This document shows, piece after piece, positions 2-26,365 of a DNA stretch of 64,000 nucleotides. The notes below the pieces were generated by a model. That model saw only the letters and a list, made by a program, of their open reading frames with translations. It ran no database searches and had not been told where the DNA came from. Both the position numbers and the translations under genes were made by a program. Source of the stretch: Novosphingobium sp. (GTDB lineage: Bacteria > Pseudomonadota > Alphaproteobacteria > Sphingomonadales > Sphingomonadaceae); the NCBI RefSeq assembly GCF_037133355.1, contig NZ_JBAXOI010000017.1:22012-86011 (forward strand), given 5' to 3'. Position 1 is the stretch's first letter. Every line of letters begins with the position of its first letter.

Positions 2-1477
2 AGCTATGACTCGAAGAACGGCGTCGCGACGGTTTGGGTCAGCCTGCCGGTGCTGAACGGCGGCGAGAAGAAGCAGATCTGGCTCTATTTCGGCAACAAA
101 ACCGCACCGGTGGGCGAGGACGTCAAGGGTACGTTCGATCCCGACTACACGCTGGTCTATCACTTCTCCGAAGGCCCCGGTCAGCCGACCGAAGACAAGA
201 CCGCCAACGGCAATACTGCGGCGAATGCCCCCGCCGGCAGCGAAGACAGCGCGATCATCGGCCACGGCGGGCACTTCGTTGGCCAGGGCGGCGTTACCGT
301 GAACGACAACCCTTCGCTGGCGATGACCCCGGGCGCGCCGTTCACATTCACGGCCTGGGTCAAGCCCGACAATCTCGGCGGCGATCAGCAGCTGTTTTCG
401 CGCGGGGGCATGGTGATCGGCGTCAACGCCGGCGTGCCCTATGTCGCGGTCGGCAGCGGCCGCGCGCAGGCGACCGCGCCGGTCAAGCAGGGTGACTGGA
501 CTCATCTCGGCGTCGTCGCCGATGGCACCACCCTGAAGATCTACGTCAATGGCATCGAGGCGGGCGCGGTTTCGGTCGCGCTGCCTGCGATTGCCGGTCC
601 GATCACGCTGGGCAGCACGCTGGTCGGCTCGCTCGACGAAGTGCGCCTGTCCAAGACCGCGCGGCCTGCAGCGATGCTCCTGGCCATGGCGAATGCCGAA
701 GGCCCCTCGACCAAGCTCGTCGGGGTTTCCGACACGGCCGAAAAGCAGGGCAACGGCGGCGGCGTGCTGTACTTCATCGTCAGCAAGCTTGAGCCGATCG
801 ATGCGGGCGTCATCGGCCTGTGCATGATCCTGCTGACCATGGCCGTCACGCTCATGGTCAACAAGATCCGCTACCTGAACGCCGCGGCCAAGGGCAACGG
901 GTTGTTCTTCAATCGCTTCAATGCGATGCATGAGAACCTTGTGCCGCTGGACCAGGCCGAAGGCATCTCGCCCGAGGAAGCGGCCTTCATCAAGAAGAGC
1001 TCGCCGATCGCGCGGCTTTACGAGATGGGCATCGCCGAGCTCGATGTACGCCGCAAATCGGCCGCAACGCGTCCGCTTTCGGGCGAGGCGGTCGAGGCGA
1101 TGCGCGCTGCTGTCGACGCGGTCTTCGTCGAAGAGAACCAGAAGCTCGACGCACTGATGGTCATCCTCACCATCGCGATCTCGGGCGGGCCGTTCATCGG
1201 GCTGCTCGGCACCGTGATCGGCGTCATGACCGTGTTCGGCGGCGTGGCCATGGCCGGCGACGTGAACGTGAACGCGATCGCGCCGGGTATCGCCGCAGCG
1301 CTGCTTGCGACCATCGCGGGCCTTGCCTGCGCCATCCCCGCACTGTTCGGCTACAACTATCTCAACGGGCGGATATCCGCACTGGCCGACCAGATGCGCG
1401 TGTTCATCGACCGCCTCATCACCCGCCTTGCGGAAATGCAGGCCGACGCGGCCTATGCCCGCGAAGCAGCAGAATAA
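2..1477 (+). CDS. ExbB/MotA/TolQ-family proton-channel protein with N-terminal DUF2341-like and LamG (concanavalin-like) domains; the 5' end lies upstream of the window
   Basis: Frame 2 is open from base 2 (SYDSKNGVATVWVSLPVLNGGEKKQIWLYFGN, a DUF2341-type motif), so the listed start at 50 is internal. LamG-like block: FTFTAWVKPD...WTHLGVVADGTTLKIYVNG...GSLDEVRLS. C-terminal MotA_ExbB module: ISGGPFIGLLGTVIGVM...AIAPGIAAALLATIAGLACAIPAL. Confidence 0.85.
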   Translation, partial: SYDSKNGVATVWVSLPVLNGGEKKQIWLYFGNKTAPVGEDVKGTFDPDYTLVYHFSEGPGQPTEDKTANGNTAANAPAGSEDSAIIGHGGHFVGQGGVTVNDNPSLAMTPGAPFTFTAWVKPDNLGGDQQLFSRGGMVIGVNAGVPYVAVGSGRAQATAPVKQGDWTHLGVVADGTTLKIYVNGIEAGAVSVALPAIAGPITLGSTLVGSLDEVRLSKTARPAAMLLAMANAEGPSTKLVGVSDTAEKQGNGGGVLYFIVSKLEPIDAGVIGLCMILLTMAVTLMVNKIRYLNAAAKGNGLFFNRFNAMHENLVPLDQAEGISPEEAAFIKKSSPIARLYEMGIAELDVRRKSAATRPLSGEAVEAMRAAVDAVFVEENQKLDALMVILTIAISGGPFIGLLGTVIGVMTVFGGVAMAGDVNVNAIAPGIAAALLATIAGLACAIPALFGYNYLNGRISALADQMRVFIDRLITRLAEMQADAAYAREAAE

Positions 1478-1489
1478 GGAGCGCGTGCG

Positions 1490-1897
1490 ATGCAGGTAGG
1501 TGGCGGCCGCAAGGCCTATGACGATATCAACATCACCCCGATGCTCGACCTTGCGTACGTGCTTCTGGTGATCTTCATCCTGATGGCGACGGCTTCGGTG
1601 CAGGGCATCAAGGTCGATCTGCCCAAGGCGAGCTCGGCCAAGAGCCTGGTCCAGCCCAAGACCATAGCCCTGACCGTGAACGATCAGGGCCAGATCTTCA
1701 TGGACGCCTTCCCGGTGACCCTGCCCGATCTCGAGACGCGCCTGCGCAATGCCAAGGCCTCGAACCCCGATGTGCCGATCGTGCTCAAGGGCGATACGAC
1801 GACGCAGTATGGCAAGATCATGGAAGTGCTCGATCTTTGCCGCCGGCTTGACCTTTCCAAGGTCGGACTGGTCACGGGCAAGCCGACCGGTACCTGA
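1490..1897 (+). CDS. exbD: ExbD/TolR-family biopolymer transport protein
   Basis: INITPMLDLAYVLLVIFILMA is a single N-terminal TM, followed by a periplasmic domain (PIVLKGDTTTQYGKIMEVLDLCRR). AAGGAG lies 8 nt upstream. The gap after the ExbB-like gene is 12 nt. Confidence 0.9.
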   Translation: MQVGGGRKAYDDINITPMLDLAYVLLVIFILMATASVQGIKVDLPKASSAKSLVQPKTIALTVNDQGQIFMDAFPVTLPDLETRLRNAKASNPDVPIVLKGDTTTQYGKIMEVLDLCRRLDLSKVGLVTGKPTGT

Positions 1898-1924
1898 GCC
1901 CGAAGGACCCTGAAGCCTAGCCCC

Positions 1925-2659
1925 ATGGCCAGCAAGCCCGCCTCTCCCAGCCCCGTGCCGCCTGCGTTCGATCCGAACGAGAAAGCGTCGGTGAAGCTGC
2001 GCCTTGTCCAGTTGGGCGCGGTGGTCCTTGTCATGCTCGCGGCCTGGTGGATCTATGGGCTCCTTACCGCTGTGCCGGGGGTGAAGGTGGAGCAAGCGCC
2101 ACCGCAGACGGTGGACATGCTGCCTCCTCCGCCGCCACCGCCGCCTCCGCCACCACCGCCACCGGATCAGCCGCCTCCGCCGGACGCCAAACCCGATCCG
2201 ATGCCCAATCCCGAACCCGCACCCGCGCCTGATCAGCCCGCGCCGATGAAGATCGACGGACCCGCGCAGGCCGGCACCGACGCCTTCGGCCTCAGTTCGG
2301 GCAAGGGCGGCGGCATGGGCGGCGGCGGCAGCAACGGTACTTGCCTCGCGCCCCCATGCGGCGGCGGCGGCTCGCCGATCAACAACGGTTTCTACATTCG
2401 CGGGATCCAGAGCGCGCTGCAGGAACTGGTCGACAGCAACGACAAGCTGAACCGGCAGATCTTCACCGCAGATTTCATGATCATCGCGAGCGCTGATGGC
2501 AAAAAGGTCGTGCGGGTCGATGTCGTGCGATCCAGCGGCAACAGCAAGCGCGACCAGTTGCTGGTCCAGACGCTCCTGCAGGGCCGCAACCTTGGCGCGC
2601 AGCCGACCGGCTTCAAGTTTCCTCAGAAGATAACCGTCCGGGGCAGCCGTGGTCTTTGA
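1925..2659 (+). CDS. TonB-architecture protein (N-terminal TM, poly-proline spacer, small C-terminal domain)
   Basis: TM is LGAVVLVMLAAWWIYGLL. It is followed by 14 consecutive Pro plus a PDxKP-rich spacer, a Gly/Cys-rich stretch (GGGMGGGGSNGTCLAPPCGGGG), and a C-terminal block VRVDVVRSSGNSKRDQLLVQTLL that resembles the TonB C-domain. The start codon is uncertain because the RBS is weak. Confidence 0.65.
   Translation: MASKPASPSPVPPAFDPNEKASVKLRLVQLGAVVLVMLAAWWIYGLLTAVPGVKVEQAPPQTVDMLPPPPPPPPPPPPPPDQPPPPDAKPDPMPNPEPAPAPDQPAPMKIDGPAQAGTDAFGLSSGKGGGMGGGGSNGTCLAPPCGGGGSPINNGFYIRGIQSALQELVDSNDKLNRQIFTADFMIIASADGKKVVRVDVVRSSGNSKRDQLLVQTLLQGRNLGAQPTGFKFPQKITVRGSRGL
2122..2163 (+). repeat. Low-complexity CCN run encoding 14 consecutive prolines inside the TonB-like gene
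   Basis: Read directly: cct cct ccg ccg cca ccg ccg cct ccg cca cca ccg cca ccg. Confidence 0.95.
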
Positions 2660-2713
2660 TCCGCGTCAGCCCGCCGCCCGCTACGGGGCCCTTTTCGAGC
2701 ATGGAGTTTCGTG

Positions 2714-4534
2714 ATGTCGGTGTGCAACCTTGATCGCCGGACCGGCTGGAAGCCGATGAAACGCGCGCTGGTGCTTTCGGCTGCGCTCGCCGGGCTGCTT
2801 GCTGGCGGGGGGGCATTTGCCCAGACCGCCGCAGTGCCCGACGCCGCACAGGCCGCCGCCGCACCTGCGGCCCAGGCTGCCGCGCCTTCGCCGGATGCGA
2901 TGACCAACCTCATCCGCCTGCTCGTCGCGCAGGGCACGATCACCAAGGAAAACGGCGAAGCGCTGCTCGCGCAGGCGCAGGCCGAAGCGGACAAGGCACG
3001 CATGGCCGCCGCCGCGCCGCCCCCGCCGCCGCCTCCGCCCGCAGGCGCTGTGCGTGTCGCCCGCGTACCCGAAGCGGTGCGCCAGCAAATCCGCGACGAG
3101 ATCCGCGGTGAAATCATGGCCCAGGCCGCGAGCGAGGGCTGGGTGACCAAGGATCAGGCCGCGCCTGAATGGACCAAGCGCATCCGCCTGTTCGGCGATG
3201 TGCGGGTGCGCTCGCAGAGTTCGCTCTATTCGAAGAACAACTCCGACCAGATCTTCGACTTTACCCGCATGACCGCAGCGGGCCAGCCGATCGATCTCGC
3301 GCGGCTCTCGTCCTACCAGTTCCTCAATACCCGCAAGGACCGCACCGACGCCCGCTACCGCGCGCGGCTTGGCATCGAGGCTCAGGTGGTCAAGGGCGTT
3401 TCGGCGACGCTCGTGCTCGGCACCGGCGACGACAACAGCCCGATCTCGGAGAACGCCAGCCTCGGTGGCGGCTTTGCCAAACGTCAGATTTTCGTCGACA
3501 CCGCCGAGATCAAGGTCAAGCCGACCGACTGGGCGACGCTCCATTTCGGCCGCTTCGAGAACCCGTTCAACACCACTCCGCTGCTCTACGACGAAGACCT
3601 CCGCTTCGACGGCGTTTCGGCAGCGCTCAAGTGGGCCGGGCTGTTTGGCAAGGATTCGGGCGTCACGCTGACCGGCGGCGCTTTCCCGCTCGACTATGGT
3701 GACGGCAACTTCCCGAGCGTCGCGGTCAACAAGCGTTCCTATCCCACCAAGTGGCTGTTTGCGGGTGAGCTCAAGCTCACTGCCCCGATAACCGATGGTC
3801 TGTCGGTCGATGCAAGCGCTGCCTATCACACCTTCAAGAACGTCCAGGGCCAGCTGTCCGAACCTTGCAACCTTGATCTGGGCGATTTCTGCTCGACCGA
3901 CGGGTTCCAGCCGCAGTTCCTGCGCAAGGGCAACACGCTGTTCACGATCCGCAATCTCGTGACCAACAGCACCGGCATCTACCCGCAGCTCTTCGGCCTC
4001 AAGTTCGACTACAACATCCTCGCTCTCAACCTCGCGCTGCGCCTGCCGGTTTCGGAGAACGTGACCGCGCGGCTGGGCGGCGAATATGTCAAGAACCTCG
4101 GCTTCAAGCGCAGCGACATCTGCTCCGGCCTCTATGACACCGCGCAGGCGTTCCTCGTCCAGCCGTACAACAATTACGGCAGCGACGGGAATGCGGCCCG
4201 CAACATCTGCACCAAGACCAATCCGACAAGTTTTGTCGGCGGCGATACCGGCTGGCTGGTCAATGCCTCGATCGGTTATCCCAAGGTGCTCAAGAAGGGC
4301 TCCTGGAACGCTTTTGCCGAGTATCGCTACCTCGAAAGCGATGCGGTGCTCGATGCCTATAGCGACAGCGATTTCCACCTCGGCGGCACCAACGCCAAGG
4401 GTTACGTGATCGGCGCCGAATATGGCGTGGCGGACCGCCTTTCGGTGCGTGCACGCTGGTTCAGCGCGAACGAGATCTCGGGTGAGCCGCTGGCGATCGA
4501 CGTGCTGCAAATCGATTTCATGGCGCGCTTCTGA
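2714..4534 (+). CDS. Porin-like outer-membrane beta-barrel protein with an N-terminal Ala-rich coiled-coil and a poly-Pro segment
   Basis: Signal peptide MKRALVLSAALAGLLAGGGAFAQ. Helical segment NLIRLLVAQGTITKENGEALLAQAQAEADKARMAAAAPPPPPPPP. Long region of alternating beta-strand-type sequence ending in the aromatic OMP terminus LQIDFMARF. Alternative starts are GTG 2711, ATG 2714 (GGAG 7 nt upstream) and ATG 2756, which sits directly before the signal peptide. Confidence 0.75.
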   Translation: MSVCNLDRRTGWKPMKRALVLSAALAGLLAGGGAFAQTAAVPDAAQAAAAPAAQAAAPSPDAMTNLIRLLVAQGTITKENGEALLAQAQAEADKARMAAAAPPPPPPPPAGAVRVARVPEAVRQQIRDEIRGEIMAQAASEGWVTKDQAAPEWTKRIRLFGDVRVRSQSSLYSKNNSDQIFDFTRMTAAGQPIDLARLSSYQFLNTRKDRTDARYRARLGIEAQVVKGVSATLVLGTGDDNSPISENASLGGGFAKRQIFVDTAEIKVKPTDWATLHFGRFENPFNTTPLLYDEDLRFDGVSAALKWAGLFGKDSGVTLTGGAFPLDYGDGNFPSVAVNKRSYPTKWLFAGELKLTAPITDGLSVDASAAYHTFKNVQGQLSEPCNLDLGDFCSTDGFQPQFLRKGNTLFTIRNLVTNSTGIYPQLFGLKFDYNILALNLALRLPVSENVTARLGGEYVKNLGFKRSDICSGLYDTAQAFLVQPYNNYGSDGNAARNICTKTNPTSFVGGDTGWLVNASIGYPKVLKKGSWNAFAEYRYLESDAVLDAYSDSDFHLGGTNAKGYVIGAEYGVADRLSVRARWFSANEISGEPLAIDVLQIDFMARF

Positions 4535-4543
4535 CGATTTCAT

Positions 4544-4563
4544 GGCCGGTCATGGGCCGGTCA
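4544..4563 (+). promoter_or_regulatory. Two copies of GGCCGGTCA spaced 11 bp apart in the 82-nt gap upstream of the giant gene (candidate regulator binding site)
   Basis: The sequence reads tcatGGCCGGTCAtgGGCCGGTCAcg. The copies lie at 4544-4552 and 4555-4563. Confidence 0.3.
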
Positions 4564-4616
4564 CGCACTCGCATTAACCTTTTCCCGAGCTCAGCACAGA
4601 CCCCAAAGGGACCGGC

Positions 4617-13600: not shown

Positions 13601-16600
13601 CGCGTTCCACGACCGCACCGACCCCGATTACATCAATCACCAGCTTGGCGGCGGCGACCGGTCCTTCCACCCGGCTGTACAGCTGGACTGCGCCGCGGGC
13701 GGCCTGTGCGACGACAACCTGGCCTCCTACAGCGCGCGGATCGGCAAACGTCCGCCATCAGACGACCAGCTTGTCGTCATCGACCTGACGCTGCCGGTGC
13801 AGGGCGCGCAGAGCACGGCGATCTTCGTCAACTCGCCCTACAGTGCAAGCGCCAACAGCGTTGCCGCGAACGGCACGGGCAATGGCATCGGCGTGGGCGA
13901 ACTGTTCCCGCTGGTCGACGGCAAGCCGGTAGCATCGTCCGATATCCGCCTTGTTGCCGGAGCCTTGGCAGGTTCGGCCGATCCGACCCAGATCGATCGG
14001 GCCAGCAAGGGTGACGTCGTCATCGCTGGCGAAAAGTCCTACTCGGTCGTGGCGCGCGAGGGCAACTACACCATCGGCGGCGGCGTGCAGCTCGGCTTCC
14101 TCGACGACAGCACAGGCAACTATCTCTACGGCAATGCCTCGGGCGATTTCTTCACCCGGACCTTCGCTGATTTCGTCGATCCGACCACGGCGAAGGACTT
14201 CTATACCAAGCTTGTATGGGGATCCGACAGCCAGCTGTCAGACGAAGCGCTGGCCGCCGCGCAGACCTTCTTTGCCGGCAACCGCTTCATCAAGGAAGAC
14301 GGCGTCGTCACCGGTGTCTATGCCTCGCTGGGCCAGGTGGCGCAGTTCCTCGCCGGAGATTACGGCGACAAGTACCGCACCGTGGTCGCGCCCGATATCT
14401 CGATCGAGACAGGCGTCCCGGTCAGCTATCCCGGCACAAAGGTTTATTACCGTCCGCTGGTGCGCACCGGTAGCGGCGACATCAGGATCGCCGCGGCGCG
14501 GGACATCGATCTCGTGGGCACGAGCAAGGTCACCTACCGCGATGTCAACAGCCTTTCGCGGGACGAGGCGGGCGATCCGCTGGAGCCCAGCTTCGACAAC
14601 GCCCAGATCGGCGGCTCGGCGGTCTACACTGCAGGCACCCGTTTGGCGCAGCTTGGCTCGGTCGCACTCGATGCCGCACGCTTCGACAAGGGCACCGAAA
14701 AGCTCGACTATATCCCCTCAACCCAGGGCACGTTCGATTTCGGTTCGGCACTCACGGGCAACGGCGGCTCGGTGAGCCTCGTCGCGGGCCGCGATGTCGT
14801 CGGGCGCCGCGATGTCTGGTCCGAGGCCTTCCTGGGCACCGGGCTCGATATCACGACAACCCTGCCGGGCTACGAAGCAGCGACCTCGACGTTCGATTCC
14901 ACGCGTGTCGGTTCGGCGAACCAGCGCTGGCGGCTCGGCCAGGTCGGTCTCGATTCGGCGATTGCCATCGTTCCGCAGCTCTTCACCTCCGGTGTGGGCG
15001 CGCTGTCGGGCGGCAACGTCGCCATCAGCGCGGGCCGAGACCTGAGCGACCTTACGATTGCGCTCGACAACTCGGTCGTCACGCAGACCGATGGGCAGGG
15101 CCAGCGAGTGCTGGTCACCAGCGCCGCCGGTGATCTGGCGCTCAGCGTCGGGCGCGACCTTCTCGGCGGACAGATCGACCTTGCGCAAGGCACCGGGCGC
15201 GTCGATGTCGGCCGCAGTGTCAGCGCAGCGGGCGAGACGTTGACCCAGGGCAGCTACGATGAGCGCGCCGATGTGCCGGACCAGCGCAATCTCTTGCGTA
15301 TCCGCGTCAGCGATGCGGCGGTCAGCCTCACCGCGCGGGGCACGGTCGATATTGGCGGGGTAAGCGCTCTGGGCGCGAACGAGGCGGTGTCGACGCTCGC
15401 CCTTACGCTCAACAGCACCGGCTTCTTCAGCCCGATTGCCGCGGTCAGCGCTTCCACGATCGGTTCGCTCGATCTGGTCATCAACCGCCGCGAACAACGT
15501 GTCGGGTTCATGCCGCCGGTCAGTGAAATCGGCACTGTCTCGTTCCTGTTTGGCACCGTGCTGCCGCCGACATTGCAGCTGCGCTCGCTCTCGGGCGATC
15601 TGTCGATCGGCAACGGCTCGGCGATGCTCATGTATCCCAGCCAGTACGGTCAGCTGTCGCTTGTCGCGGGCGGCGATGTCGGCCGCTTCGCTCTGGCGAT
15701 GAGCGATGCCAACACGTCGGATCTGCCCGGTGCTTTCACCGTCACACGGATCGAAAGCGCCAACGGCGGGATTCAGCGCTTCACCGGTCTCGGCTACACG
15801 TTTGGCTCTGTCATCCAACCCACCGATGACCCGACCCTGCGCCTGCTGCACGACCGCAACATTCTGCATGCCGGCGATTCTCGTCCGGTCGATATCTTCG
15901 CCGGCGGCTCGATCAGCGATGTCCAGCTCAATCTGGCCAAGTCTGCGCGGATCAATGCCGGGCGCGATATCATCGATTTCTATTTCGAGGGGCAGAATCT
16001 TGCCGTCTCGGACATCACCAGCGTTGTGGCCGGGCGCGACATCACTGCGACCACGCAGCTGCCCCTGCTCGACAGTCCGGCGGCGGGTCGGCCCTTCACG
16101 CGGCTGACCAATTTCCTGCTTGGCGGGCCGGGTACGCTATCGGTCCAGGCGGGCCGCGATCTCGGGCCGTTCCTCAATTCGGCCACGGTCGGCGGTATCA
16201 GCTATGCTGGCGGCATTCGCACCATCGGCAACGAAGCAAATCCCTGGCTGCCGAGCCAGGGTGCCGACATCTTCGCGCTGTTCGGTGTGGTGGGCGGCGC
16301 GGACTATACCGCCCTGCGCACGACTTATCTCGATCCAGCCAACCTCGCCAAGCTCGACGGCGATCTCTTCGTCCAGAACGTGGATTCGGCGGGCAACAAG
16401 ACGCCTGACCGCAGCAGGCCGGTCTATGCGCCGAAGCTCGCCCTGTGGCTCCAGGCCAATGCGCCCGATGTCTTCGCCAGCGTGTTCGCCGATCGGCCGG
16501 GTATTTCCGGCGATGCCTTGACTGCGGCGGCCTATTCCCGCTTCGACAAGCTCTACGCCGCTTTCATCGGCCGGGTGCCCGAACCGCAGCAGCGCCAGTT

Positions 16601-17696
16601 CCTGATCAAGGAAGTCTACTTCGGCGAGATCGCGGCGCCTGCCGATCCCAACGGTCCGTCCTACCAGCAATATGTCCGCGGCTACCGCGCGATCCAGACC
16701 TTGTTCCCCACCACGCTTGGCTACACCGACAACCTCGCGACATTCGAGACTGATCCCGCGAGCGTTACGGCCGACCATCCGCTGGGCGAGGCGGTCAAGA
16801 AGCTGGTTGATGGCGAGCCGGCGCTGGCGACACGCATCATCACCGGCAATGTCGACTTGCGCCTCGCCACGATTCAGACCAGCCGCGGCGGCACGATCGA
16901 TATTCTCGGCCCGGGCGGCGATCTCATTGCCGGTTCGGTGGTGCGTACCTCCGAGCAGGCCGCGCGCAAGTCGTCCATGTTCGGCCCCGTCGGCGTGGAG
17001 TATCTGCGCACCGGCCTCGGCTTGCAGAGTTTCCCGCTTGGCATCGACGCGATCCCGATCGGCTACGAAGGCGTGCTCAGCCTGCGTGGCGGTACGATCC
17101 AGTCGTTCACCGATGGAGATTTCCGCCTCAACCAGAGCCGCCTGTTCACCCTGTCGGGCGGTGACATCACGATGTGGTCTTCGAACGGCGATCTCAACGC
17201 GGGTCAGGGACCGAAGTCGGCTTCCAACTTCCCGCCGATCGTGCTGCGCTTCACGCCGAACGGGGTGGGCGAGGTCGACTCTGCCGGCAGCGTCTCGGGC
17301 GCCGGTATTGCCGCGCTTCGGCCCAGCCTCGATGTGGCGCCCTCGCGCGTCACGCTCATCGCGCCGGTCGGCACGGTTGACGCAGGCGATGCCGGCGTGC
17401 GCGCTTCGGGTGACGTGTTCGTGGCCGCCGCGCGCGTTGCCAATGCCGACAACTTCAAGGTTGGCGGCGTTTCGGTCGGTGTGCCAACCACCGCTGTGGT
17501 GGCGGCGCCGGCAGCGCCTGCCAGCGCAGCGGCGGCGACTGCCGCGACGGCCGCGCAGGCCGGTGCGCAGCAGCGCAACGACAGCGCCGATCGCCGTTCG
17601 ATCATCCGCGTCGATGTGCTAGGCTTCTTCGGCGGCGGCGGCGGTGACAATTGCCCCAGCGGCCGCTTCGATTCCGAGGGCCGCTGCATCAATTGA
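4617..17696 (+). CDS. Giant (4359 aa) filamentous-haemagglutinin-family protein with an N-terminal TPS (haemagglutination activity) domain and a conserved C-terminal module
   Basis: Sec signal: KRQRLLASASALVLGLGCTVAPAHAQ. TPS-domain motifs at about nt 5088-5335: LLSWNNFDVGAKTSLVFDQ...VLNRVVDPNARPTTILGSIKAPGTVFVLNRSGVIFGNGAQVNVHSLLASSLEI. The remainder is thousands of residues of Gly/Ala/Ser/Thr/Val-rich beta-helix-type sequence. C-terminal motif GGDITMWSSNGDLNAGQGPKSASNFPP at about nt 17160-17230. AAAGGGA RBS lies 5 nt upstream. Confidence 0.9.
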   Translation: MNKRSNTVTGKRQRLLASASALVLGLGCTVAPAHAQMARLQGAVGAVPVITASGATAPVPHRSVRMQEALAQQQAARDAVKAMRGLVTQAREAALAATRIRPTEGLSLKGLNPAVTKVTASVDDPTGLATWQGALLPTQTEADGKFTVTIKQTDSRALLSWNNFDVGAKTSLVFDQTVGGKAQTDWVVLNRVVDPNARPTTILGSIKAPGTVFVLNRSGVIFGNGAQVNVHSLLASSLEIGNFAKDFSRDTADSNFFTGLTLKERNTAYLENGLLGPSASPSKYAALITSSLAGSGRYATTNPTLAFSAAPEGDVVVDRGASIAASGGGFVILTAPNVSNDGQLSAPEGQVSLQAGRAISFTVSTGDAKGADSDIRGLILRTITEDGGAVVNSGLIDVPRGYISLGSDLTGSVENAGLLSSTTSVSRNGTISLLAGTVRIAGGSDTTHAGGISILDDSSTETVPQGTADEPAAFKTSRIDIGAAYVPLVAGSSTLGLFGPASVEFGANTLLLAPSANVSIGTRASQAFDLNAFLSTGRVVSNGSVTVGEGVRIDVSGIKDVTLEASRNVVTISPLKGNELRDTPNYRDVRTDGSFTLNGRTVTIDPRRSGVRADGVRWVGSPLIEAGSAASQIGVGAAELMTKGGTVTFGVALPDTVQPLATTPQVKIARSASVDFSGGWVHYNPGWVYSSRLIQADGTLVDIADADPNGVYIGLADGFTDIQSKFGIADTFTNRSLAGQRFDPAYDEGRDAGGMVVIASTAAIDGTLHGDAFAGERQLRSGTVGTARSAIALDQRQLQSSVLQLPSGGFFRVGSFSGSDGASFGGDILVHADGATDLPTGQGVFLFSDRQLSEAGLSALTLQTSGGVTFGAGTKLALANGGKLTIDAGRTINFDGTVTARGGAIVARTYELGGTVDQSILAQTGSAFTTADDTKSIYAKGEALPALFDINVRGTLDVAGLWSNDFLAVGTLPTGQAWTSGGSISLTVAPKVVVSEGTDVLTAKSAVDLSGSILLAKDALLNVASGGYVDPTGALRLTARGGSVSLINETTYASLSRTAAVLDDLSTPDLTFGGENQSVAFTPYVVNGKTVRGGLVPLVQRSVVSFEAENFKGFSFGGGGTFTLVAPEIALGGTRPATGSWLGLDFLQKTGFGGLDLTTFRSRAYDDLLAGGPGGTSTFLVTTKFVIGEGETLDLNQALLPNYVDPATSAKLAALQSGSDVTSVVSASVPTEAFDQRAATLTLGGLTELTVAKGGTVTGAAGASITAAKLLNQGTIRIVGGSIQQRAVLPEVLFGNAIGVRDEANGGNGLGDVLGGRIETGGKVQYTENAASKVLFAGTPLTNGELFSKSGADRVVYFLGALDKDTGLRFDAGSVTDLSGGAVFDPRAPLTADGHRVARGQLFGGGTITTASSLNNPAITLFSQPVYGNGRNQVTVSGSSVTYGGLTAGAKISTGNGAQIDLRGATARFDEQDSSGNFALVDQWSNGGAIRVLAGGSLAGATIRAGGGAANAEGGTLEWFAPIVVQAYGADAGANSLLAADQITASGFTTFVARGSVNLAGGVDLKLDKAFILSSANLPTGAITERDLQVRAALVSNGDATIEAPYILLSSQSQTATGDLATSATAGSLTFSGKSIDLVGGLGFAVPDAGSVHFDSSGDVRLIGVKQPEPNPTVLTGVTGAIVSSGDIAFSARQVYTTTGTGNLQRLLEDRRNGTTTSTARPYLIATVAANGTVSFDSVGGALPDSPLSAGSWLRVLGAHIRQDGVLRAPLGLIELGSSTPQIVPGSLTSAVATSSITFGEGSVTSVTGTGLNVPYGQTTDLTEYYFAPNVSAALTTAPTGQLVLSGEDITIDTGAKIDGRGGGDVFAFEFVSGTGGSRDLLSRLNADAFSSNDGLQFADGRQVYAILPVEKAGLVATYDPIYSADYGAGTGDLYGAAAGRTVHLDGAPGIPAGDYLLLPAHYALLPGAMRLVENTSAAAPYVGASNTLLDGSVQVGGTFGTAGTDFRESQRRSFTVQSASTFKKYSKIQVTSGTDNFNKLAEKQGRVAPRSPLDAARFVVNPGQSFTVNGTFDVATTGSGRGAQFDIAANAIAIRSVAGAETPGVLTLTTGTLTNLNANSLLLGGVRQDNADGTTRIDVTANTISVAGGVSLTLPELVMAVAGQDSRISVGSGASLTASGTLADSRAGNYVVGYQADGSSFDNTGIGAVLRLSSGPDRLVTRDIDPALGSAELARASLRISSGASLKGNSIALNASGTVKFASEASITASNISLGSAAISFGSDGIDPDFAAKLASADRLTLQSRRVITLGSSLPERFNTLAIDAPGLASDGGDVTIRAKAVEFGNSGADRVSCATAGLGACGADAALTVKADEITFGNGTFRLYGFDGGVALDAAKGIYVAGKGAFAIDDGAGSSPVRLTMKTPVLADRSATATADIKSGGADYTFLTRGRVIIDGTGRTAPASLPAVSAGSIIAFGSSEAAVAALTINNATVRATSGIVQAYARGNIVVTGNSVIAAPGFTTRIGATEDALVATAGGGTITLQSNLGDVTLAKTVGLVVDSGVGNAGHLNLVAAHGTIDLGAALNSGIASGTSRGASLLLDGNAITDGAGGTFDFSRFVTDNGAKFQGTLQIHTGTGDLALASGQTVKARSVTLATDSGRVTIAGTIDTSGADVSKLKLTDPAYGDAEVSGGDIALYGADGVTLAGTAKLLARTSGYGAGDSRQARGGNVTLGIASDSANVTVAVGSVIDVSATRPGDRLVRIAVKDPQTLTQSSAYRLAAGDLGGTVTFRAPVIENDSKVDVRSSGTITGAREVAIAAFKRFDLDAIAAAGVLGGVVRDGQGNIHLDAAATGEPNFLADLTAPGALPQFVRDFSVTLKNGGSLAGIRVRPEMELSAARGVILDSNINLGAGHITDYAGALADGYIAPSELGPDAAGNPRYRVVAGKEAALFAKYVDMTYRVGGKVTGEAGVFTLRAGGSVQVANSISDGFFAFHDRTDPDYINHQLGGGDRSFHPAVQLDCAAGGLCDDNLASYSARIGKRPPSDDQLVVIDLTLPVQGAQSTAIFVNSPYSASANSVAANGTGNGIGVGELFPLVDGKPVASSDIRLVAGALAGSADPTQIDRASKGDVVIAGEKSYSVVAREGNYTIGGGVQLGFLDDSTGNYLYGNASGDFFTRTFADFVDPTTAKDFYTKLVWGSDSQLSDEALAAAQTFFAGNRFIKEDGVVTGVYASLGQVAQFLAGDYGDKYRTVVAPDISIETGVPVSYPGTKVYYRPLVRTGSGDIRIAAARDIDLVGTSKVTYRDVNSLSRDEAGDPLEPSFDNAQIGGSAVYTAGTRLAQLGSVALDAARFDKGTEKLDYIPSTQGTFDFGSALTGNGGSVSLVAGRDVVGRRDVWSEAFLGTGLDITTTLPGYEAATSTFDSTRVGSANQRWRLGQVGLDSAIAIVPQLFTSGVGALSGGNVAISAGRDLSDLTIALDNSVVTQTDGQGQRVLVTSAAGDLALSVGRDLLGGQIDLAQGTGRVDVGRSVSAAGETLTQGSYDERADVPDQRNLLRIRVSDAAVSLTARGTVDIGGVSALGANEAVSTLALTLNSTGFFSPIAAVSASTIGSLDLVINRREQRVGFMPPVSEIGTVSFLFGTVLPPTLQLRSLSGDLSIGNGSAMLMYPSQYGQLSLVAGGDVGRFALAMSDANTSDLPGAFTVTRIESANGGIQRFTGLGYTFGSVIQPTDDPTLRLLHDRNILHAGDSRPVDIFAGGSISDVQLNLAKSARINAGRDIIDFYFEGQNLAVSDITSVVAGRDITATTQLPLLDSPAAGRPFTRLTNFLLGGPGTLSVQAGRDLGPFLNSATVGGISYAGGIRTIGNEANPWLPSQGADIFALFGVVGGADYTALRTTYLDPANLAKLDGDLFVQNVDSAGNKTPDRSRPVYAPKLALWLQANAPDVFASVFADRPGISGDALTAAAYSRFDKLYAAFIGRVPEPQQRQFLIKEVYFGEIAAPADPNGPSYQQYVRGYRAIQTLFPTTLGYTDNLATFETDPASVTADHPLGEAVKKLVDGEPALATRIITGNVDLRLATIQTSRGGTIDILGPGGDLIAGSVVRTSEQAARKSSMFGPVGVEYLRTGLGLQSFPLGIDAIPIGYEGVLSLRGGTIQSFTDGDFRLNQSRLFTLSGGDITMWSSNGDLNAGQGPKSASNFPPIVLRFTPNGVGEVDSAGSVSGAGIAALRPSLDVAPSRVTLIAPVGTVDAGDAGVRASGDVFVAAARVANADNFKVGGVSVGVPTTAVVAAPAAPASAAAATAATAAQAGAQQRNDSADRRSIIRVDVLGFFGGGGGDNCPSGRFDSEGRCIN

Positions 17697-17742
17697 TCCC
17701 TAGTGGCCTCTCGCATCCATGTGCTGAATCAGGACGATACCC

Positions 17743-18396
17743 ATGACCAATGCCTTCCGTTTCCCAGTGGCCGCAGCGGCCATGCTTGCGTTCGTGATGG
17801 CCGACCCGCTTGCCGCGCAGTCGGCGCCCCCGCCGGTTGCCACTCCGGCACCTGCACCTGCGCCTGCTGCGCCCACGCTCGGCGGGCCGCTTATCGCCGG
17901 CGTGTGCCTCCTCTCGCGCGAGGCTGTGCTGGCCAACAGCAAAGTCGGCATTTATGCCTCGCAGCGTATCCGTCAGCTAACCGAAGAGGCGCAGGCCGAG
18001 GTCAATGCCGATCGCAAGCCGATCGAGGCCGATCTGGCCGCGCTGCGCGCCCAGGCTGCCAAGCTGACCCCGGAGCAGCGTGCCGCGCAGGAAAAGGCGC
18101 TCGCCGCCCGTTTCCCACCCGTCCAGACTAAAGCCGAGCAGCGCACGCGCGAGATCGAGAAGACCCGCGCCAAGGCGATCGACGCGATCAGCCAGCAGCT
18201 CCAGCCGGTAATCGGGGTGGTCTATACCCAGAAGGGCTGCGGCCTGTTGCTCGACCGCAACAGCGTGCTTGGGGGCAATATGGGCAACGATCTGACCCCC
18301 GCAGTGGTAGCCGGTCTAGATGCGCGGCTCACCGCGCTGCCAATCCAGCGCGAAAATCTCTCCGGCGCGGCACCGGCACCGGCACAAGCACGGTAA
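17743..18396 (+). CDS. OmpH/Skp-family periplasmic chaperone
   Basis: Signal peptide AAAAMLAFVMADPLAAQ, then coiled-coil Skp-type sequence: VLANSKVGIYASQRIRQLTEEAQAEVNADRKPIEADLAALRAQAAKLTPEQRAAQEKAL...LQPVIGVVYTQKGCGLLLDRNSVL. Confidence 0.8.
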   Translation: MTNAFRFPVAAAAMLAFVMADPLAAQSAPPPVATPAPAPAPAAPTLGGPLIAGVCLLSREAVLANSKVGIYASQRIRQLTEEAQAEVNADRKPIEADLAALRAQAAKLTPEQRAAQEKALAARFPPVQTKAEQRTREIEKTRAKAIDAISQQLQPVIGVVYTQKGCGLLLDRNSVLGGNMGNDLTPAVVAGLDARLTALPIQRENLSGAAPAPAQAR

Positions 18397-18445
18397 ACCA
18401 TCCGGCTGGCGGGCTGGCGGAGGCCCGCCGGCCCGCGCGGGGCCA

Positions 18446-18468
18446 GGAATGGTCCATTCCCGTTTTTG
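18446..18468 (+). terminator. Candidate intrinsic terminator after the Skp-like gene
   Basis: GGAATG-gtc-CATTCC followed by CGTTTTTG, preceded by GC-rich hairpins at 18400-18444. The stem is short, so confidence is moderate. Confidence 0.5.
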
Positions 18469-21975: not shown

Positions 21976-22078
21976 CGGCGGGCTTTCGACTGAATGTATG
22001 TCAGGGCCAAGACAGCGCCGGCGCCCGGGCAGCCGCCATAGGCCGCTAATTGGCTCTAGGCAATTTGCCTTGGCACTG

Positions 22079-22094: not shown

Positions 22095-22111
22095 GCCTCC
22101 TGGAGCTTCCC

Positions 22112-22885: not shown

Positions 22886-22893
22886 GCGCAGTC

Positions 22894-26318: not shown

Positions 26319-26365
26319 TTGCGAGTACTATTTTCTCATGGCCTCGGGCGGCCGGATTTCTGCCG

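What the first reader, a model, noticed from the sequence alone, without database searches (positions are those of the whole stretch)
2..18396. ExbB(DUF2341-LamG)-ExbD-TonB-like-porin-like OMP-giant TPS-domain protein-Skp cluster, with no TpsB and no TonB-dependent receptor in view
Seen: six co-directional genes are separated by only 12, 27, 54 (or 96), 82 and 46 nt. They encode an ExbB channel with large ectodomains, ExbD, a TonB-architecture protein, a 606-aa beta-barrel-type OMP, a 4359-aa protein with an N-terminal TPS domain, and an OmpH/Skp chaperone. Terminator-like hairpins appear only after the last gene. Established: TPS-domain exoproteins are normally exported by an adjacent Omp85-type TpsB (POTRA domains plus barrel). 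ExbBD-TonB normally energises import through plug-containing TonB-dependent receptors. Neither partner type is present here. Inference: this may be a proton-motive-force-driven envelope machine that exports, anchors, tensions or moves a giant beta-helical surface fibre. The idea parallels GldLM-SprB and AglRQS-Glt gliding machineries, or Oar-type TonB-dependent protein export. I do not recall this arrangement being functionally characterised.
Basis: partly seen in the sequence, partly recalled or inferred. Interest (0 to 1): 0.8.

Follow-up and report, generated by a model that had tools for sequence, protein, structure and literature searches.

The report
Known giant-fibre secretion cluster, edge-truncated
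This is the Novosphingobium copy of a gene cluster already known from Pseudomonas aeruginosa, in which a giant surface protein and its exporter are encoded with a proton-powered TonB-like motor and a special porin; the exporter looked absent only because the window starts in mid-cluster, and what the motor does is still unknown.

Summary
The six genes, their spacing and their domain assignments are all confirmed. The headline "no TpsB" is a window-edge artefact. The first gene (ExbB) is cut by base 1. In 61 of 63 related loci with enough upstream DNA, a canonical ShlB/POTRA_2 TpsB lies directly upstream. In the nearest relative its stop overlaps the ExbB start codon.

The conserved unit is TpsB, ExbB(DUF2341-LamG), ExbD, TonB-like and Porin_5, plus a giant TpsA ending in DUF3739. 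It occurs across Alpha-, Beta- and Gammaproteobacteria. Gene for gene it matches the P. aeruginosa pdtA/pdtB-exbB2-exbD2-tonB4-PA0696 locus. That locus is induced by phosphate starvation, its conservation was noted in 2009, and its Ton-like part was still called uncharacterised in 2020.

Skp is a lineage-specific addition. The porin models as a 16-strand OmpM/OmpF-like barrel with a periplasmic N-terminal extension. It has no plug and no POTRA domain, so it is not the exporter.

A secreted PstS-like protein gene (18828-20840), and T2SS genes in relatives, travel with the cluster as hxc-lapA/DING does in pseudomonads.

Verdict: a new member of a known but mechanistically unsolved kind. The linkage of the motor to the giant gene is real.

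The parts
2..1477 (+). ExbB-family proton-channel subunit. A periplasmic DUF2341 + LamG (Laminin_G_3) domain precedes the MotA_ExbB membrane domain. The 5' end (about 99 codons, including the signal peptide) is cut off by the window edge.
   Evidence: Pfam hits. 451 of 491 residues are identical to residues 100-590 of the 590-aa N. fuchskuhlense protein. Alignment to TolQ/ExbB structures shows the Thr148 and Thr181 equivalents kept and the Glu176 equivalent replaced by Ala.
1490..1897 (+). ExbD/TolR-family subunit with the transmembrane Asp (D20, equivalent to E. coli ExbD D25).
   Evidence: Pfam ExbD, E 1e-30. Alignment to ExbD structures 7ajq and 6tyi. Asp is present at this position in 78 of 79 cluster homologues.
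1925..2659 (+). TonB-architecture protein: N-terminal membrane helix, poly-Pro/Pro-rich spacer, Gly-rich segment, and a C-terminal domain of about 85 aa of TonB/TolA type.
   Evidence: Translation. TonB_2 scores 21.4 bits here and 29.3 bits in the Cupriavidus orthologue. A family profile hits the C-terminal domains of HasB, TolA and TonB in the PDB at E 0.002-0.1.
2756..4534 (+). Porin_5 (PF16930) outer-membrane protein: signal peptide, periplasmic helical N-terminal extension with a Pro-rich linker, then a 16-strand barrel. An alternative start lies at 2714.
   Evidence: Pfam E 3e-147. AlphaFold2 model pLDDT 84.4, pTM 0.75. Best PDB fold matches are OmpM1 (E 2e-16) followed by OmpF/OmpC porins.
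3044..3073 (+). Conserved short motif G-A-V-R-V-A-R-V-P-E (family consensus G-x-[IV]-R-V-P-Y-V-P-E) in the flexible linker of the porin's periplasmic extension. It is a candidate TonB-box-like docking strand (inference).
   Evidence: G98, R101, V102 and P106 are invariant in 124 sequences. The consensus is kept in distant Gamma- and Alphaproteobacteria. The segment is low-confidence coil in the model. Sequence read.
4617..17696 (+). Giant TpsA exoprotein (4359 aa): signal peptide, TPS secretion domain (residues 144-309, nt 5046-5543), about 3,700 residues with no Pfam family, and C-terminal DUF3739 (residues 4181-4291, nt 17157-17489).
   Evidence: TPS-domain matches to EtpA, HxuA and HMW1 structures.
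17743..18396 (+). Skp/OmpH-family periplasmic chaperone. A lineage-specific member of the cluster.
   Evidence: Pfam OmpH 62.7 bits. It follows TpsA only in close relatives (10 metagenome loci with a TpsA C-terminus at least 73% identical) and occurs in the Steroidobacter cluster.
18409..18470 (+). Two stem-loops and a U-run after Skp. Likely end of the transcription unit.
   Evidence: -45 kcal/mol, z = -2.1.
18604..18617 (+). Motif TCACAAAAATGTCA, about 210 nt upstream of the PstS-like gene. The same core precedes the TpsB operon in relatives. It looks Pho-box-like, but this is unproven.
   Evidence: A single match in the window against 0.00 expected. In 153 loci it is found only upstream of TpsB (7 loci) or between Skp and the PstS-like gene (2 loci).
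18828..20840 (+). 670-aa secreted PstS-like (PBP_like_2) protein. It is a recurrent neighbour of the cluster and probably part of the same functional island.
   Evidence: Pfam PBP_like_2, E 3e-18. Partial PstS match. Homologues lie beside the cluster in 19 of 67 metagenome loci and 10 of 80 genome loci.

Best explanation
The region is the downstream six-sevenths of a Pdt-type two-partner-secretion (type Vb) island. It is the Novosphingobium counterpart of P. aeruginosa pdtA / pdtB-exbB2-exbD2-tonB4-PA0696.

Step 1 (shown in relatives, inferred for this genome; p about 0.9). A ShlB/FhaC-type TpsB is encoded just upstream of base 1, in the same operon as ExbB. It exports the 4359-aa TpsA through recognition of the TpsA N-terminal TPS domain. 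Skp chaperones the unfolded giant protein or the barrels in the periplasm.

Step 2 (parts shown, coupling inferred; p about 0.5). ExbB and ExbD form a proton-driven stator. The ExbD Asp and the ExbB Thr residues are kept, and the family has a signature Glu176-to-Ala change. The ExbB subunits carry periplasmic DUF2341-LamG domains. The stator energises the TonB-like protein, whose C-terminal domain docks on the invariant G-x-x-R-V-x-x-x-P strand in the periplasmic extension of Porin_5. Porin_5 is a 16-strand porin-like channel with a conserved arginine cluster opposite an acidic loop 3.

Step 3 (inference; p about 0.4). This energised porin acts as an uptake or hand-over gate. It serves what the surface fibre and the co-encoded secreted PstS-like protein capture, as part of a phosphate-starvation scavenging island. 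The logic is that of HxuA/HxuB/HxuC, but with a porin in place of a plug-barrel receptor.

The next most likely role (p about 0.3) is help with secretion, retention or release of the giant TpsA. It is listed as the first rival.
For: Conserved gene order TpsB-ExbB-ExbD-TonB-like-Porin_5, same strand:
- 61 of 63 loci have TpsB, 60 of 63 have ExbB, and 62 of 66 have TpsA downstream.
- Pfam confirms it in Novosphingobium, Cupriavidus, Xanthomonas and Lysobacter.
- PGAP annotation confirms it on a Klebsiella plasmid. All seven proteins there are homologous to the window or L002 proteins.
- That plasmid repeats the published PA0674-PA0701 order, including the porin, YbjN, PPIase and LysR genes.
- In PAO1, phdA-pdtB-exbB2D2-tonB4-PA0696-PA0701 is one transcription unit, induced by Pi starvation.

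Motor residues. TonB/TolA-type C-terminal domain. Porin fold and N-terminal extension. Invariant motif and charged residues.

Phosphate link:
- The PstS-like gene recurs beside the cluster.
- T2SS E/F genes lie divergently upstream of TpsB in 20 loci, including all the nearest relatives.
- A shared cis motif precedes both the TpsB operon and the PstS-like gene.
- The same trio, hxc T2SS, DING/LapA and a 4083-aa haemagglutinin, is found in P. fluorescens. There both exoproteins are abundant in Pi-deplete cultures.
Against: - The DNA upstream of base 1 of this genome was not available, so TpsB is inferred here rather than seen.
- I had no P. aeruginosa sequence. PA0696 = Porin_5 rests on synteny through the Klebsiella and Cupriavidus loci and on the published label 'putative outer membrane porin'.
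- No experiment links the Ton-like module to any phenotype. PA0695 and PA0696 transposon mutants showed no virulence change in zebrafish.
- TonB partners known so far are 22-strand plug barrels, not porins.
- The TonB-like membrane helix lacks the Ser-x3-His motif of E. coli TonB (the motif is recalled from memory).
- ExbB lacks Glu176, which is reported as essential in E. coli.
- The very tight TpsB-ExbB coupling, the sharing of one module by several TpsA genes and the cluster-encoded chaperones and proteases fit a secretion role at least as well as an uptake role.
- Inorganic phosphate normally crosses the outer membrane without energy.
- The Pho-box reading of the motif is only a resemblance.
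Confidence: 0.5

Rival explanations
1. Secretion or retention accessory. The ExbBD-TonB-like motor and Porin_5 serve the TPS pathway itself. They would use proton-motive force to start, sustain, arrest, anchor, release or retract the 4,000-aa TpsA. One route is gripping its C-terminal DUF3739 region or the TpsB in the periplasm, with Porin_5 as the outer-membrane anchor.
For: - The five-gene unit always starts with TpsB, and TpsB and ExbB are translationally coupled.
- The TpsA position varies, and several TpsA(DUF3739) genes can share one unit.
- Every TpsA linked to the unit carries DUF3739.
- Periplasmic chaperones or proteases are cluster-encoded. They are Skp here, a PPIase in Klebsiella and P. 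aeruginosa, and a retropepsin-like protease after TpsA in 10 other lineages.
- The porin's best fold match is an outer-membrane attachment porin, OmpM1.
Against: - Established TPS systems (FhaB/FhaC, HMW1, ShlA) need no inner-membrane energy source.
- The invariant arginine cluster and acidic loop 3 of Porin_5 suggest selection for a solute channel, which a mere anchor would not need.
- No contact between DUF3739 and any module protein has been tested. My structure model of the C-terminus failed.
Confidence: 0.3
2. Cell-surface signalling device. The Ton-like module and porin are the outer-membrane sensing end of a PUMA3/VreA-VreI-VreR-type pathway that switches on the TpsA genes. They would have no direct transport or secretion role.
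For: - STN-domain protein, ECF sigma and FecR anti-sigma genes sit inside or beside the cluster in Cupriavidus, Klebsiella, Methylosinus and P. aeruginosa.
- The Cupriavidus VreA-like protein has an STN domain plus a TonB_2-like C-terminal domain.
- TonB energises signalling in classical FecA-type systems.
Against: - No STN, ECF sigma or FecR gene is in the window or in the 10 kb upstream of the Sphingomonadales, Xanthomonas or Lysobacter clusters.
- The five-gene unit is nevertheless fully conserved there.
Confidence: 0.1
3. First reader's version. There is no TpsB, and the giant TPS-domain protein is exported through the porin-like OMP by a TonB-like, proton-driven mechanism.
For: No TpsB in the 64-kb window. 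The motor and OMP genes are tightly linked to the giant gene.
Against: - TpsB lies immediately upstream in 61 of 63 relatives, including the nearest one.
- The window cuts the first gene.
- Porin_5 has no POTRA or Omp85 features and folds as a 16-strand porin.
Confidence: 0.03
4. Unrelated neighbours. An ordinary Ton or Tol paralogue and a porin that merely happen to lie beside a TPS gene.
For: None beyond the generic family names.
Against: Synteny is conserved across three proteobacterial classes and on a conjugative plasmid. The genes form a single operon in PAO1. ExbB carries family-specific features in all 76 homologues (DUF2341-LamG, Glu176 to Ala).
Confidence: 0.02

Closest known systems
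P. aeruginosa Pdt locus: pdtA (PA0690), phdA, pdtB (PA0692), exbB2, exbD2, tonB4 (PA0695), PA0696-PA0701; PUMA3/VreI and PhoB regulon
   Same: The parts and the order of the core unit match: TpsB, ExbB, ExbD, TonB homologue, putative porin, plus a TpsA of about 4,100-4,400 aa. This was shown through the Klebsiella plasmid and Cupriavidus loci, which repeat the PAO1 gene list and are homologous to the window proteins. There is also linkage to a T2SS and a PstS-like exoprotein.
   Different: Here TpsA follows the porin rather than preceding TpsB. Skp replaces PA0697, YbjN and the PpiC-type PPIase. No VreA/VreI/VreR genes and no phdA are in view. Direct sequence comparison with PAO1 proteins was not possible.
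H. influenzae HxuA/HxuB/HxuC (TPS pair plus TonB-dependent receptor in one operon)
   Same: A TpsA, its TpsB and a TonB-energised outer-membrane protein are encoded together. The window TPS domain matches the HxuA structure. The TpsA captures a ligand at the surface for energised uptake.
   Different: HxuC is a 22-strand plug-containing receptor that uses the housekeeping TonB. Here the partner is a 16-strand porin-like protein with its own ExbB, ExbD and TonB-like set. TpsA is about 4.5 times larger than HxuA.
Classical TPS systems (FhaB/FhaC, HMW1A/B, EtpA/B, ShlA/B)
   Same: N-terminal TPS domain. ShlB/POTRA_2 partner in relatives.
   Different: Classical operons have no ExbBD-TonB-porin module. 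DUF3739 replaces FhaB-type C-terminal regions. The relative's TpsB goes from signal peptide to POTRA1 within about 12 residues, so an FhaC-like H1 plug helix seems absent (inspection only).
TonB-ExbB-ExbD with TonB-dependent transporters; TolQRA-Pal
   Same: MotA_ExbB and ExbD families with the key Thr and Asp residues. A TonB-like protein with membrane helix, Pro-rich spacer and TonB/TolA-type C-terminal domain.
   Different: ExbB has a periplasmic DUF2341-LamG domain of about 330 aa and Ala in place of Glu176. No plug-barrel receptor and no Pal/TolB. The TonB-like helix lacks Ser-x3-His.
OmpM1 of Veillonella parvula (outer-membrane attachment porin) and OmpF/OmpC general porins
   Same: A 16-strand barrel with a periplasmic N-terminal helical extension. 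Best Foldseek match E 2e-16, TM 0.77 on the target.
   Different: No SLH domain. About 15% sequence identity. Trimer formation is untested. Porin_5 has long extracellular loops with four invariant Cys.
P. fluorescens SBW25 hxc T2SS - psp (DING) - pflu2428 (4083-aa haemagglutinin)
   Same: A T2SS, a secreted PstS-like phosphate-binding protein and a giant TpsA are adjacent. Both exoproteins are abundant in Pi-deplete cultures.
   Different: The window protein is 670 aa, roughly twice the size of a DING protein, and has no detectable match to solved PstS or DING structures by sequence. T2SS genes are seen only in relatives.
GldLM-SprB and AglRQS-Glt gliding motors
   Same: A MotA/ExbB-type stator coupled to outer-membrane and surface adhesin components.
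   Different: No homology beyond the stator superfamily. No gliding-track, T9SS or Glt components are present. The resemblance is conceptual only and was not tested.

Membership tests
Two-partner secretion (type Vb) | TpsA with N-terminal TPS secretion domain after a Sec signal peptide | tested here: met
   TIGR01901 57.9 bits (cut-off 29.1). PF05860 65.9 bits (cut-off 33.5). PDB matches to EtpA, HxuA and HMW1. The signal-peptide-like N-terminus was read.
Two-partner secretion (type Vb) | Cognate TpsB (two POTRA domains plus Omp85-type barrel) encoded with TpsA | tested here: inconclusive
   Absent from the 64-kb window, but the window starts inside the cluster. Present directly upstream of ExbB in 61 of 63 related loci. 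Confirmed by Pfam. The upstream DNA of this genome was not obtainable.
Two-partner secretion (type Vb) | Beta-helical passenger | tested here: inconclusive
   No Pfam repeats between residues 450 and 4180. The single-sequence AlphaFold2 model of the C-terminus has pLDDT 34.9.
Pdt-type locus (P. aeruginosa PA0690-PA0699) | Unit TpsB-ExbB-ExbD-TonB homologue-putative porin, in that order | tested here: met
   The last four genes are in the window in that order. All five are in relatives. The order matches the published PAO1 list and the annotated Klebsiella plasmid.
Pdt-type locus (P. aeruginosa PA0690-PA0699) | Giant TpsA (about 4,000 aa) of the DUF3739 type | tested here: met
   4359 aa, DUF3739 E 1e-30. 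The same architecture is seen in Cupriavidus, Xanthomonas and Lysobacter. DUF3739 in PdtA itself was not checked.
Pdt-type locus (P. aeruginosa PA0690-PA0699) | Direct sequence homology to the PAO1 proteins PA0690 and PA0692-PA0696 | not tested
The link is by synteny and product descriptions through L083 and L153.
Pdt-type locus (P. aeruginosa PA0690-PA0699) | Accessory genes PA0697-like, YbjN, PpiC-type PPIase; VreA/VreI/VreR regulators | tested here: not met
   None are in the window. Skp occupies the post-TpsA position. The Cupriavidus 232-aa PA0697-like protein is unrelated to Skp.
Pdt-type locus (P. aeruginosa PA0690-PA0699) | Induction by phosphate starvation (PhoB, sigma-VreI) | not testable with these tools
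   Indirect only: the PstS-like neighbour, a shared Pho-box-like motif and T2SS genes in relatives.
Ton system (ExbB-ExbD-TonB plus TonB-dependent transporter) | ExbB/ExbD stator with proton-pathway residues (ExbD Asp25; ExbB Thr148, Thr181, Glu176) | tested here: inconclusive
   The Asp and both Thr residues are kept. Glu176 is Ala in all 76 cluster homologues. Glu176 is described as essential in E. coli in PMC8599685.
Ton system (ExbB-ExbD-TonB plus TonB-dependent transporter) | TonB: membrane helix with Ser-x3-His, Pro-rich spacer, C-terminal TonB domain | tested here: inconclusive
   The helix, spacer and C-terminal domain are present. TonB_2 scores 21.4 bits here (below the cut-off of 22) and 29.3 bits in an orthologue. 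The family profile hits HasB, TolA and TonB C-terminal domains. There is no Ser-x3-His in the helix.
Ton system (ExbB-ExbD-TonB plus TonB-dependent transporter) | Partner is a 22-strand barrel with plug domain and TonB box | tested here: not met
   No Plug or TonB_dep_Rec family is in the window. The linked OMP is a 16-strand porin-like barrel. Only a candidate TonB-box-like motif is present.
Porin_5 (PF16930) / general porin fold | Full-length match to PF16930; 16-strand barrel | tested here: met
   492 bits, profile positions 3-535 of 535. The model has 16 long strands and pLDDT 84.4. Fold matches are OmpM1 and OmpF/OmpC.
OmpM-type attachment porin | N-terminal SLH domain binding peptidoglycan; trimeric coiled-coil stalk | tested here: not met
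   No SLH family hit. N-terminal helices are present, but oligomer state and peptidoglycan binding are not testable here.
Skp/OmpH chaperone | Match to the OmpH family with signal peptide | tested here: met
   PF03938 62.7 bits (cut-off 32.4). The signal-peptide-like N-terminus was read.

The most novel reading that the evidence does not exclude
The TonB-like motor with its DUF2341-LamG ExbB drives a 16-strand porin rather than a plug barrel. That would be a new class of energised outer-membrane gate. Together with the giant TpsA fibre and a T2SS-secreted PstS-like protein it would form a 'phosphophore' relay. In that relay, phosphate (or the loaded binding protein) is captured on the fibre, stripped and passed inward at the expense of proton-motive force. 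The fibre could also be the unidentified scaffold of the Pi-starvation-induced, Hxc-dependent PstS/DING-rich appendages seen on P. aeruginosa.
Probability: 0.15. Interest if true: 0.8.

Novelty: new member of a known kind. Interest (0 to 1): 0.38.

Why it matters
Two-partner secretion is taught as a self-sufficient, energy-independent pathway. TonB systems are taught as importers that act on plug barrels. This widespread cluster ties the two together with a porin as the third party, and nobody has shown why.

The cluster occurs in at least 223 of 185,579 species genomes by one marker and has thousands of protein relatives. In P. aeruginosa it belongs to the phosphate-starvation virulence regulon.

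The comparative picture assembled here turns a 15-year-old annotation curiosity into a set of testable hypotheses. Its elements are:
- an invariant five-gene unit;
- a family-wide ExbB Glu176-to-Ala change;
- an OmpM-like porin with an invariant periplasmic motif;
- lineage-specific chaperones and proteases;
- linkage to a T2SS and a PstS-like exoprotein in both Pseudomonas and sphingomonads.

For the scan itself, the lesson is that an 'absent partner' next to a window edge should not be scored as a finding.

Tried and rejected
1. A second protein search with a 19-sequence Porin_5 profile returned the same Sphingomonadales set and added nothing. A profile of distant loci was needed to reach Beta- and Gammaproteobacteria.
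2. Sequence search of the PDB found nothing useful for Porin_5, for the PstS-like protein or for the single TonB-like sequence. Only the family profile gave TonB/TolA/HasB hits.
The single-sequence run gave pLDDT 34.9 and was discarded, so the DUF3739 fold is unknown.
4. Literature: 'DUF3739' has no relevant paper. 'DUF2341' appears only as an unexplained appendage in MotAB evolution papers. Searches on TpsA/TpsB/ExbB terms, on 'tonB4', 'PA0696' and 'Porin_5', and on exbB2/PdtA/vreI since 2020 found no functional study of the module. Faure et al. 2014, on PdtA/PdtB, is not held.
5. I considered that Sphingobium SYK-6 exbB3, which also lacks Glu176 and whose mutant has no growth phenotype, is a member of this family. 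That could not be shown, so it is not claimed.
6. I tested whether the Cupriavidus 232-aa gene after the porin is a divergent Skp. It is not.
7. Porin_5 genes without the cluster (Sphingomicrobium L042 and L045) have uninformative neighbours.
8. The 21-nt promoter-region motif of relatives has no match in the window at up to 3 mismatches. Only the 14-nt core does. The longer upstream motif TTTATGCGC-N3-ATGTGACA was considered as a Pho box and not accepted, because the half-site spacing is 10 nt rather than 11.
9. Rfam found nothing in the window.
10. The generic terminator scan is at chance level.

Full report
**What is in the window**

ORF listing and a third-codon-position G+C filter give six co-directional + strand genes:
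- 2-1477, open at the 5' end;
- 1490-1897;
- 1925-2659;
- 2714 or 2756-4534;
- 4617-17696;
- 17743-18396.

The start at 2756 places a typical signal peptide at the N-terminus.

Family scans confirm every assignment:
- ExbB: MotA_ExbB preceded by Laminin_G_3 and a partial DUF2341.
- ExbD: clear match.
- TonB-like: a TonB-architecture protein whose TonB_2 score (21.4 bits) is just under Pfam's cut-off of 22.
- OMP: a full-length Porin_5 (PF16930) match, E 3e-147.
- Giant protein: 4359 aa with a TPS domain (TIGR01901 57.9 bits; PF05860 65.9 bits at residues 144-309) and a C-terminal DUF3739.
- Skp: an OmpH family protein.

The TPS domain also matches the solved TPS domains of EtpA, HxuA and HMW1. 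Two hairpins and a U-run follow Skp. The generic terminator scan is no better than chance.

The window is from a Novosphingobium sp. MAG (100% match to P0001).

**The missing TpsB is an edge effect**

The rest of the window contains no TpsB (tblastn) and no TonB-dependent receptor (Pfam on all long ORFs). However, the first gene is cut by base 1. Compared with the 590-aa N. fuchskuhlense orthologue (451 of 491 residues identical), it lacks the first 99 residues, including the signal peptide. The only other assembly of this DNA begins 174 nt further upstream.

In Novosphingobium sp. MMS21-SN21R the homologous cluster has a POTRA_2/ShlB gene immediately before the DUF2341-ExbB gene.

I then scanned one genome per species (185,579 species) with a Porin_5 alignment. 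This gave 223 relatives, of which the best 80 loci were kept. tblastn with the window proteins and the MMS21 TpsB showed:
- 61 of 63 loci with at least 4.9 kb upstream have TpsB upstream on the same strand;
- 60 of 63 have ExbB;
- 62 of 66 loci with enough downstream DNA have the TpsA N-terminus downstream.

In the nearest relative (N. fuchskuhlense; Porin_5 87% identical), the TpsB scores above Pfam cut-offs for ShlB and POTRA_2. Its stop codon overlaps the ExbB ATG.

The exceptions are two Sphingomicrobium loci with a lone Porin_5, one locus with TpsB-Porin_5 but no motor genes, and Steroidobacter, where TpsA precedes TpsB.

The sample is biased towards relatives of the query porin. Independent look-ups give the same order, with Pfam labels or PGAP annotation, in Cupriavidus necator, Xanthomonas sacchari, Lysobacter enzymogenes and a conjugative Klebsiella plasmid.

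**It is the Pdt-type cluster of P. aeruginosa**

Llamas et al. 2009 list PA0690 (tpsA), PA0692 (tpsB), PA0693/4 (exbB2/exbD2), PA0695 (a tonB homologue) and PA0696 as one sigma-VreI-regulated block. They noted that TPS, ExbBD and PA0696 homologues are associated in other proteobacteria.

Later papers add the following:
- The genes are named pdtA, pdtB and tonB4. PA0696 is called a putative outer-membrane porin, PA0698 a YbjN protein and PA0699 a PpiC-type PPIase.
- The exbB2-exbD2-tonB4 system is 'still uncharacterized'.
- phdA-pdtB-exbB2D2-tonB4-PA0696-PA0701 is one transcription unit.
- PdtA, PA0696 and PA0698 are among the proteins most enriched under phosphate limitation.

I had no P. aeruginosa sequence to compare directly. 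Two loci bridge the gap:
- The Klebsiella plasmid locus reads VreA-like, sigma, FecR-like, TpsA (4121 aa), ShlB/FhaC, ExbB, ExbD, TonB, putative porin, hypothetical, YbjN, PPIase, hypothetical, LysR. That is the published PAO1 order. All seven core proteins there are homologous to the window or L002 proteins, with Porin_5 at 40% identity and E 2e-117.
- The Cupriavidus locus carries the same parts, including STN, ECF sigma, FecR and YbjN.

I therefore file the window as a member of this cluster type. The direct PAO1 comparison remains an untested row in the membership table.

TpsA(DUF3739) genes can also sit apart from the unit with their own regulators, as on the Methylosinus plasmid. Llamas et al. 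described the same for R. palustris.

**Anatomy of the accessory module**

ExbD keeps the membrane Asp (D20, equivalent to D25 of E. coli ExbD). This holds in 78 of 79 homologues.

ExbB keeps the Thr148 and Thr181 equivalents. It has Ala at the Glu176 position in all 76 cluster homologues. Glu176 is called essential in E. coli, so this is a family signature of unknown meaning. The full-length relative shows a cleavable signal peptide, so the DUF2341-LamG part of about 330 aa is periplasmic.

The TonB-like protein has a membrane helix, a poly-Pro spacer, a conserved AQAG-DAFG/Gly-rich stretch and a C-terminal domain. As a family profile, that domain hits the C-terminal domains of HasB (E 0.002), TolA (E 0.004) and TonB (E 0.04-0.1). 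The Cupriavidus orthologue passes the TonB_2 cut-off.

Porin_5 was modelled with 124 sequences (pLDDT 84.4, pTM 0.75). The model has three N-terminal helices and a Pro-rich linker followed by 16 long strands. Foldseek puts it nearest to OmpM1, the outer-membrane attachment porin of Veillonella (E 2e-16), and then to OmpF/OmpC-type porins. No Omp85 or plug-barrel protein appears among the 50 best matches listed.

From the strand order in the model and the invariant columns, two features stand out:
- Arg151, Arg153, Arg203 and Arg205 lie on strands 1-2.
- The invariant acidic D-x-D-L-x-F-D-G lies in the third extracellular loop.

This arrangement recalls the eyelet of classical porins. It is an inference; I could not inspect coordinates.

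In the flexible linker, G98, R101, V102 and P106 are invariant (consensus G-x-[IV]-R-V-P-Y-V-P-E). This is the kind of short strand a TonB-type domain could bind. The idea is untested.

**Skp and other add-ons**

I scanned metagenomes with the TpsA C-terminus, which gave 67 loci. Skp follows TpsA only in close relatives: 10 loci with a TpsA C-terminus at least 73% identical. It also occurs in the Steroidobacter cluster.

Elsewhere the gene right after TpsA encodes a retropepsin-like aspartyl protease (10 loci), an M23 peptidase (3 loci) or a Hint-domain protein (3 loci). P. aeruginosa and Klebsiella have a PPIase instead.

The core is therefore five genes plus TpsA, with chaperones and proteases swapped by lineage.

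**A wider island**

The next gene in the window (18828-20840) encodes a 670-aa secreted PstS-like protein. Its homologues lie beside the cluster in 19 of 67 metagenome loci and 10 of 80 genome loci. In several of those genome loci it sits between TpsB and a divergent pair of T2SS E/F genes. Such T2SS genes lie upstream of TpsB in 20 genome loci, including all nearest relatives.

A 14-nt core, TCWCAAAAATKTCA, occurs once in the window (0.00 expected), about 210 nt before the PstS-like gene. I chose the degenerate positions to include the window site, so that match is partly by construction. In 153 loci the core occurs only before TpsB (7 loci) or between Skp and the PstS-like gene (2 loci). The L088 and L093 sites are independent.

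Pseudomonads have the same trio. The hxc T2SS, the Pi-starvation-induced DING/LapA phosphate-binding exoprotein it secretes, and the giant haemagglutinin are adjacent in P. fluorescens SBW25. There both exoproteins are abundant in Pi-deplete cultures. Zaborina et al. described Pi-limitation-induced, Hxc-dependent PstS/DING-rich surface appendages whose scaffold was not identified.

**How it most likely works**

Shown:
- the parts, their families and the motor residues;
- the porin fold (as a model);
- the conserved order;
- the operon and phosphate regulation in P. aeruginosa (from the literature).

Inferred with high confidence: TpsB lies upstream here and exports TpsA.

Inferred with moderate confidence: ExbB/ExbD energise the TonB-like protein, which acts on the periplasmic extension of Porin_5.

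The purpose is open. I rank the options as follows:
- About 0.4: an energised gate serving phosphate-linked scavenging together with the fibre and the PstS-like exoprotein. In its favour are the canonical import role of TonB, the HxuCBA precedent, the conserved porin eyelet, and the Pho/T2SS/PstS linkage seen in two distant clades.
- About 0.3: a secretion, retention or release aid for the giant TpsA. In its favour are the TpsB-ExbB coupling, one unit serving several TpsA genes, the universal DUF3739, and the cluster-encoded chaperones and proteases.
- About 0.1: a signalling role, because sphingomonad and xanthomonad clusters lack VreAIR genes.

**Novelty and score**

The arrangement is not new. 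It was described and noted as conserved in 2009. This is a further member with a lineage-specific Skp.

What remains is a real, long-standing and unsolved question about a TonB-like motor and a porin inside a TPS operon. Several observations made here sharpen that question. Interest is moderate at 0.38.

Noticed in passing
window 18828-20840 (+): A 670-aa secreted PstS-like (PBP_like_2) protein gene lies 430 nt after Skp. Its homologues recur next to the TPS/ExbBD/Porin_5 cluster in many Alphaproteobacteria (29 of 147 loci). This parallels DING/LapA next to pdtA in pseudomonads. No solved structure matches it by sequence.
   Followed up: partly
window 18604-18617 (+); L003 5204, L006 5281, L007 5235, L009 5140, L010 5265, L011 5007, L018 5237; L088 3158, L093 2065: The core TCWCAAAAATKTCA is found only upstream of the TpsB operon or upstream of the PstS-like gene. 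It is a shared promoter or operator element. It has two TGTCA-like half-sites 11 bp apart with an A-tract, which looks like a Pho box. The regulator is unknown.
   Followed up: partly
L003 2079-5042 (-) and 19 other genome loci: Type II secretion E (with MshEN domain) and F genes lie divergently upstream of TpsB in the Novosphingobium clade nearest the window. This echoes the hxc T2SS beside pdtA in Pseudomonas. A second conserved motif, TTTATGCGC-N3-ATGTGACA-N-AAT-N-ATTTC, lies in the shared intergenic region.
   Followed up: partly
window 1200-1400 (ExbB TM3) and all 76 cluster ExbB homologues in the loci: The position of E. coli ExbB Glu176 / TolQ Glu173 is Ala throughout this ExbB subfamily (motif APG[IM][AS]AAL), while the Thr148/Thr181 equivalents and the ExbD Asp are kept.
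   Followed up: yes
L109 7242-7724, L111 4787-5365, L112 7291-7854, L114 7267-7827, L117 2322-2879, L126-L129 and others: In other lineages the gene 65-97 nt after the DUF3739 TpsA encodes a retropepsin-like aspartyl protease of about 190 aa (PF13975/PF13650; 10 of 32 scanned). It may be a dedicated TpsA maturation protease. Three others encode M23 peptidases and three encode Hint-domain proteins.
   Followed up: partly
L083 13274-13939 (Cupriavidus necator): The VreA-like protein has an STN domain followed by a TonB_2-like C-terminal domain (23.6 bits). The signalling protein may therefore compete for the same docking strand as the TonB-like protein.
   Followed up: no
L060 5511-11254: A variant cluster has TpsB directly followed by Porin_5, with no ExbB, ExbD or TonB-like genes, and a convergent TpsA C-terminus downstream. 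The porin stays with TpsB even without the dedicated motor.
   Followed up: no
L003 5277-6932 (TpsB of the nearest relative): Only about 12 residues separate the predicted signal-peptide end from POTRA1. The N-terminal H1 plug helix and linker known from FhaC seem to be missing in this TpsB clade.
   Followed up: no
window 26366-31352 (-): A type I secretion set: an outer-membrane efflux protein (OEP), a HlyD-family adaptor and an ABC exporter.
   Followed up: no
window 21854-24217 (+) and 24282-26327 (-): Molybdate ABC transporter genes (modA and a modC-like gene) and a Kup potassium transporter lie between the island and the T1SS genes.
   Followed up: no
window 39443-62400 (+): The second half of the window holds part of the conserved ribosomal-protein region. 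Pfam confirmed ribosomal protein S5 at 51156-52172 and SecY at 60314-61681. The long ORFs at 39443-41587 and 41689-42879 look like EF-G and EF-Tu by position but were not scanned. The ribosomal region is interrupted around 52-58.5 kb by genes on both strands, including DUF4440/SnoaL, DUF4139 and FAD-binding proteins.
   Followed up: no
window 2753-4534 (Porin_5), residues C372, C380, C457, C486 of the 593-aa query: Four cysteines are invariant in 124 family members. They lie in long extracellular loops, which suggests two conserved disulfides.
   Followed up: no
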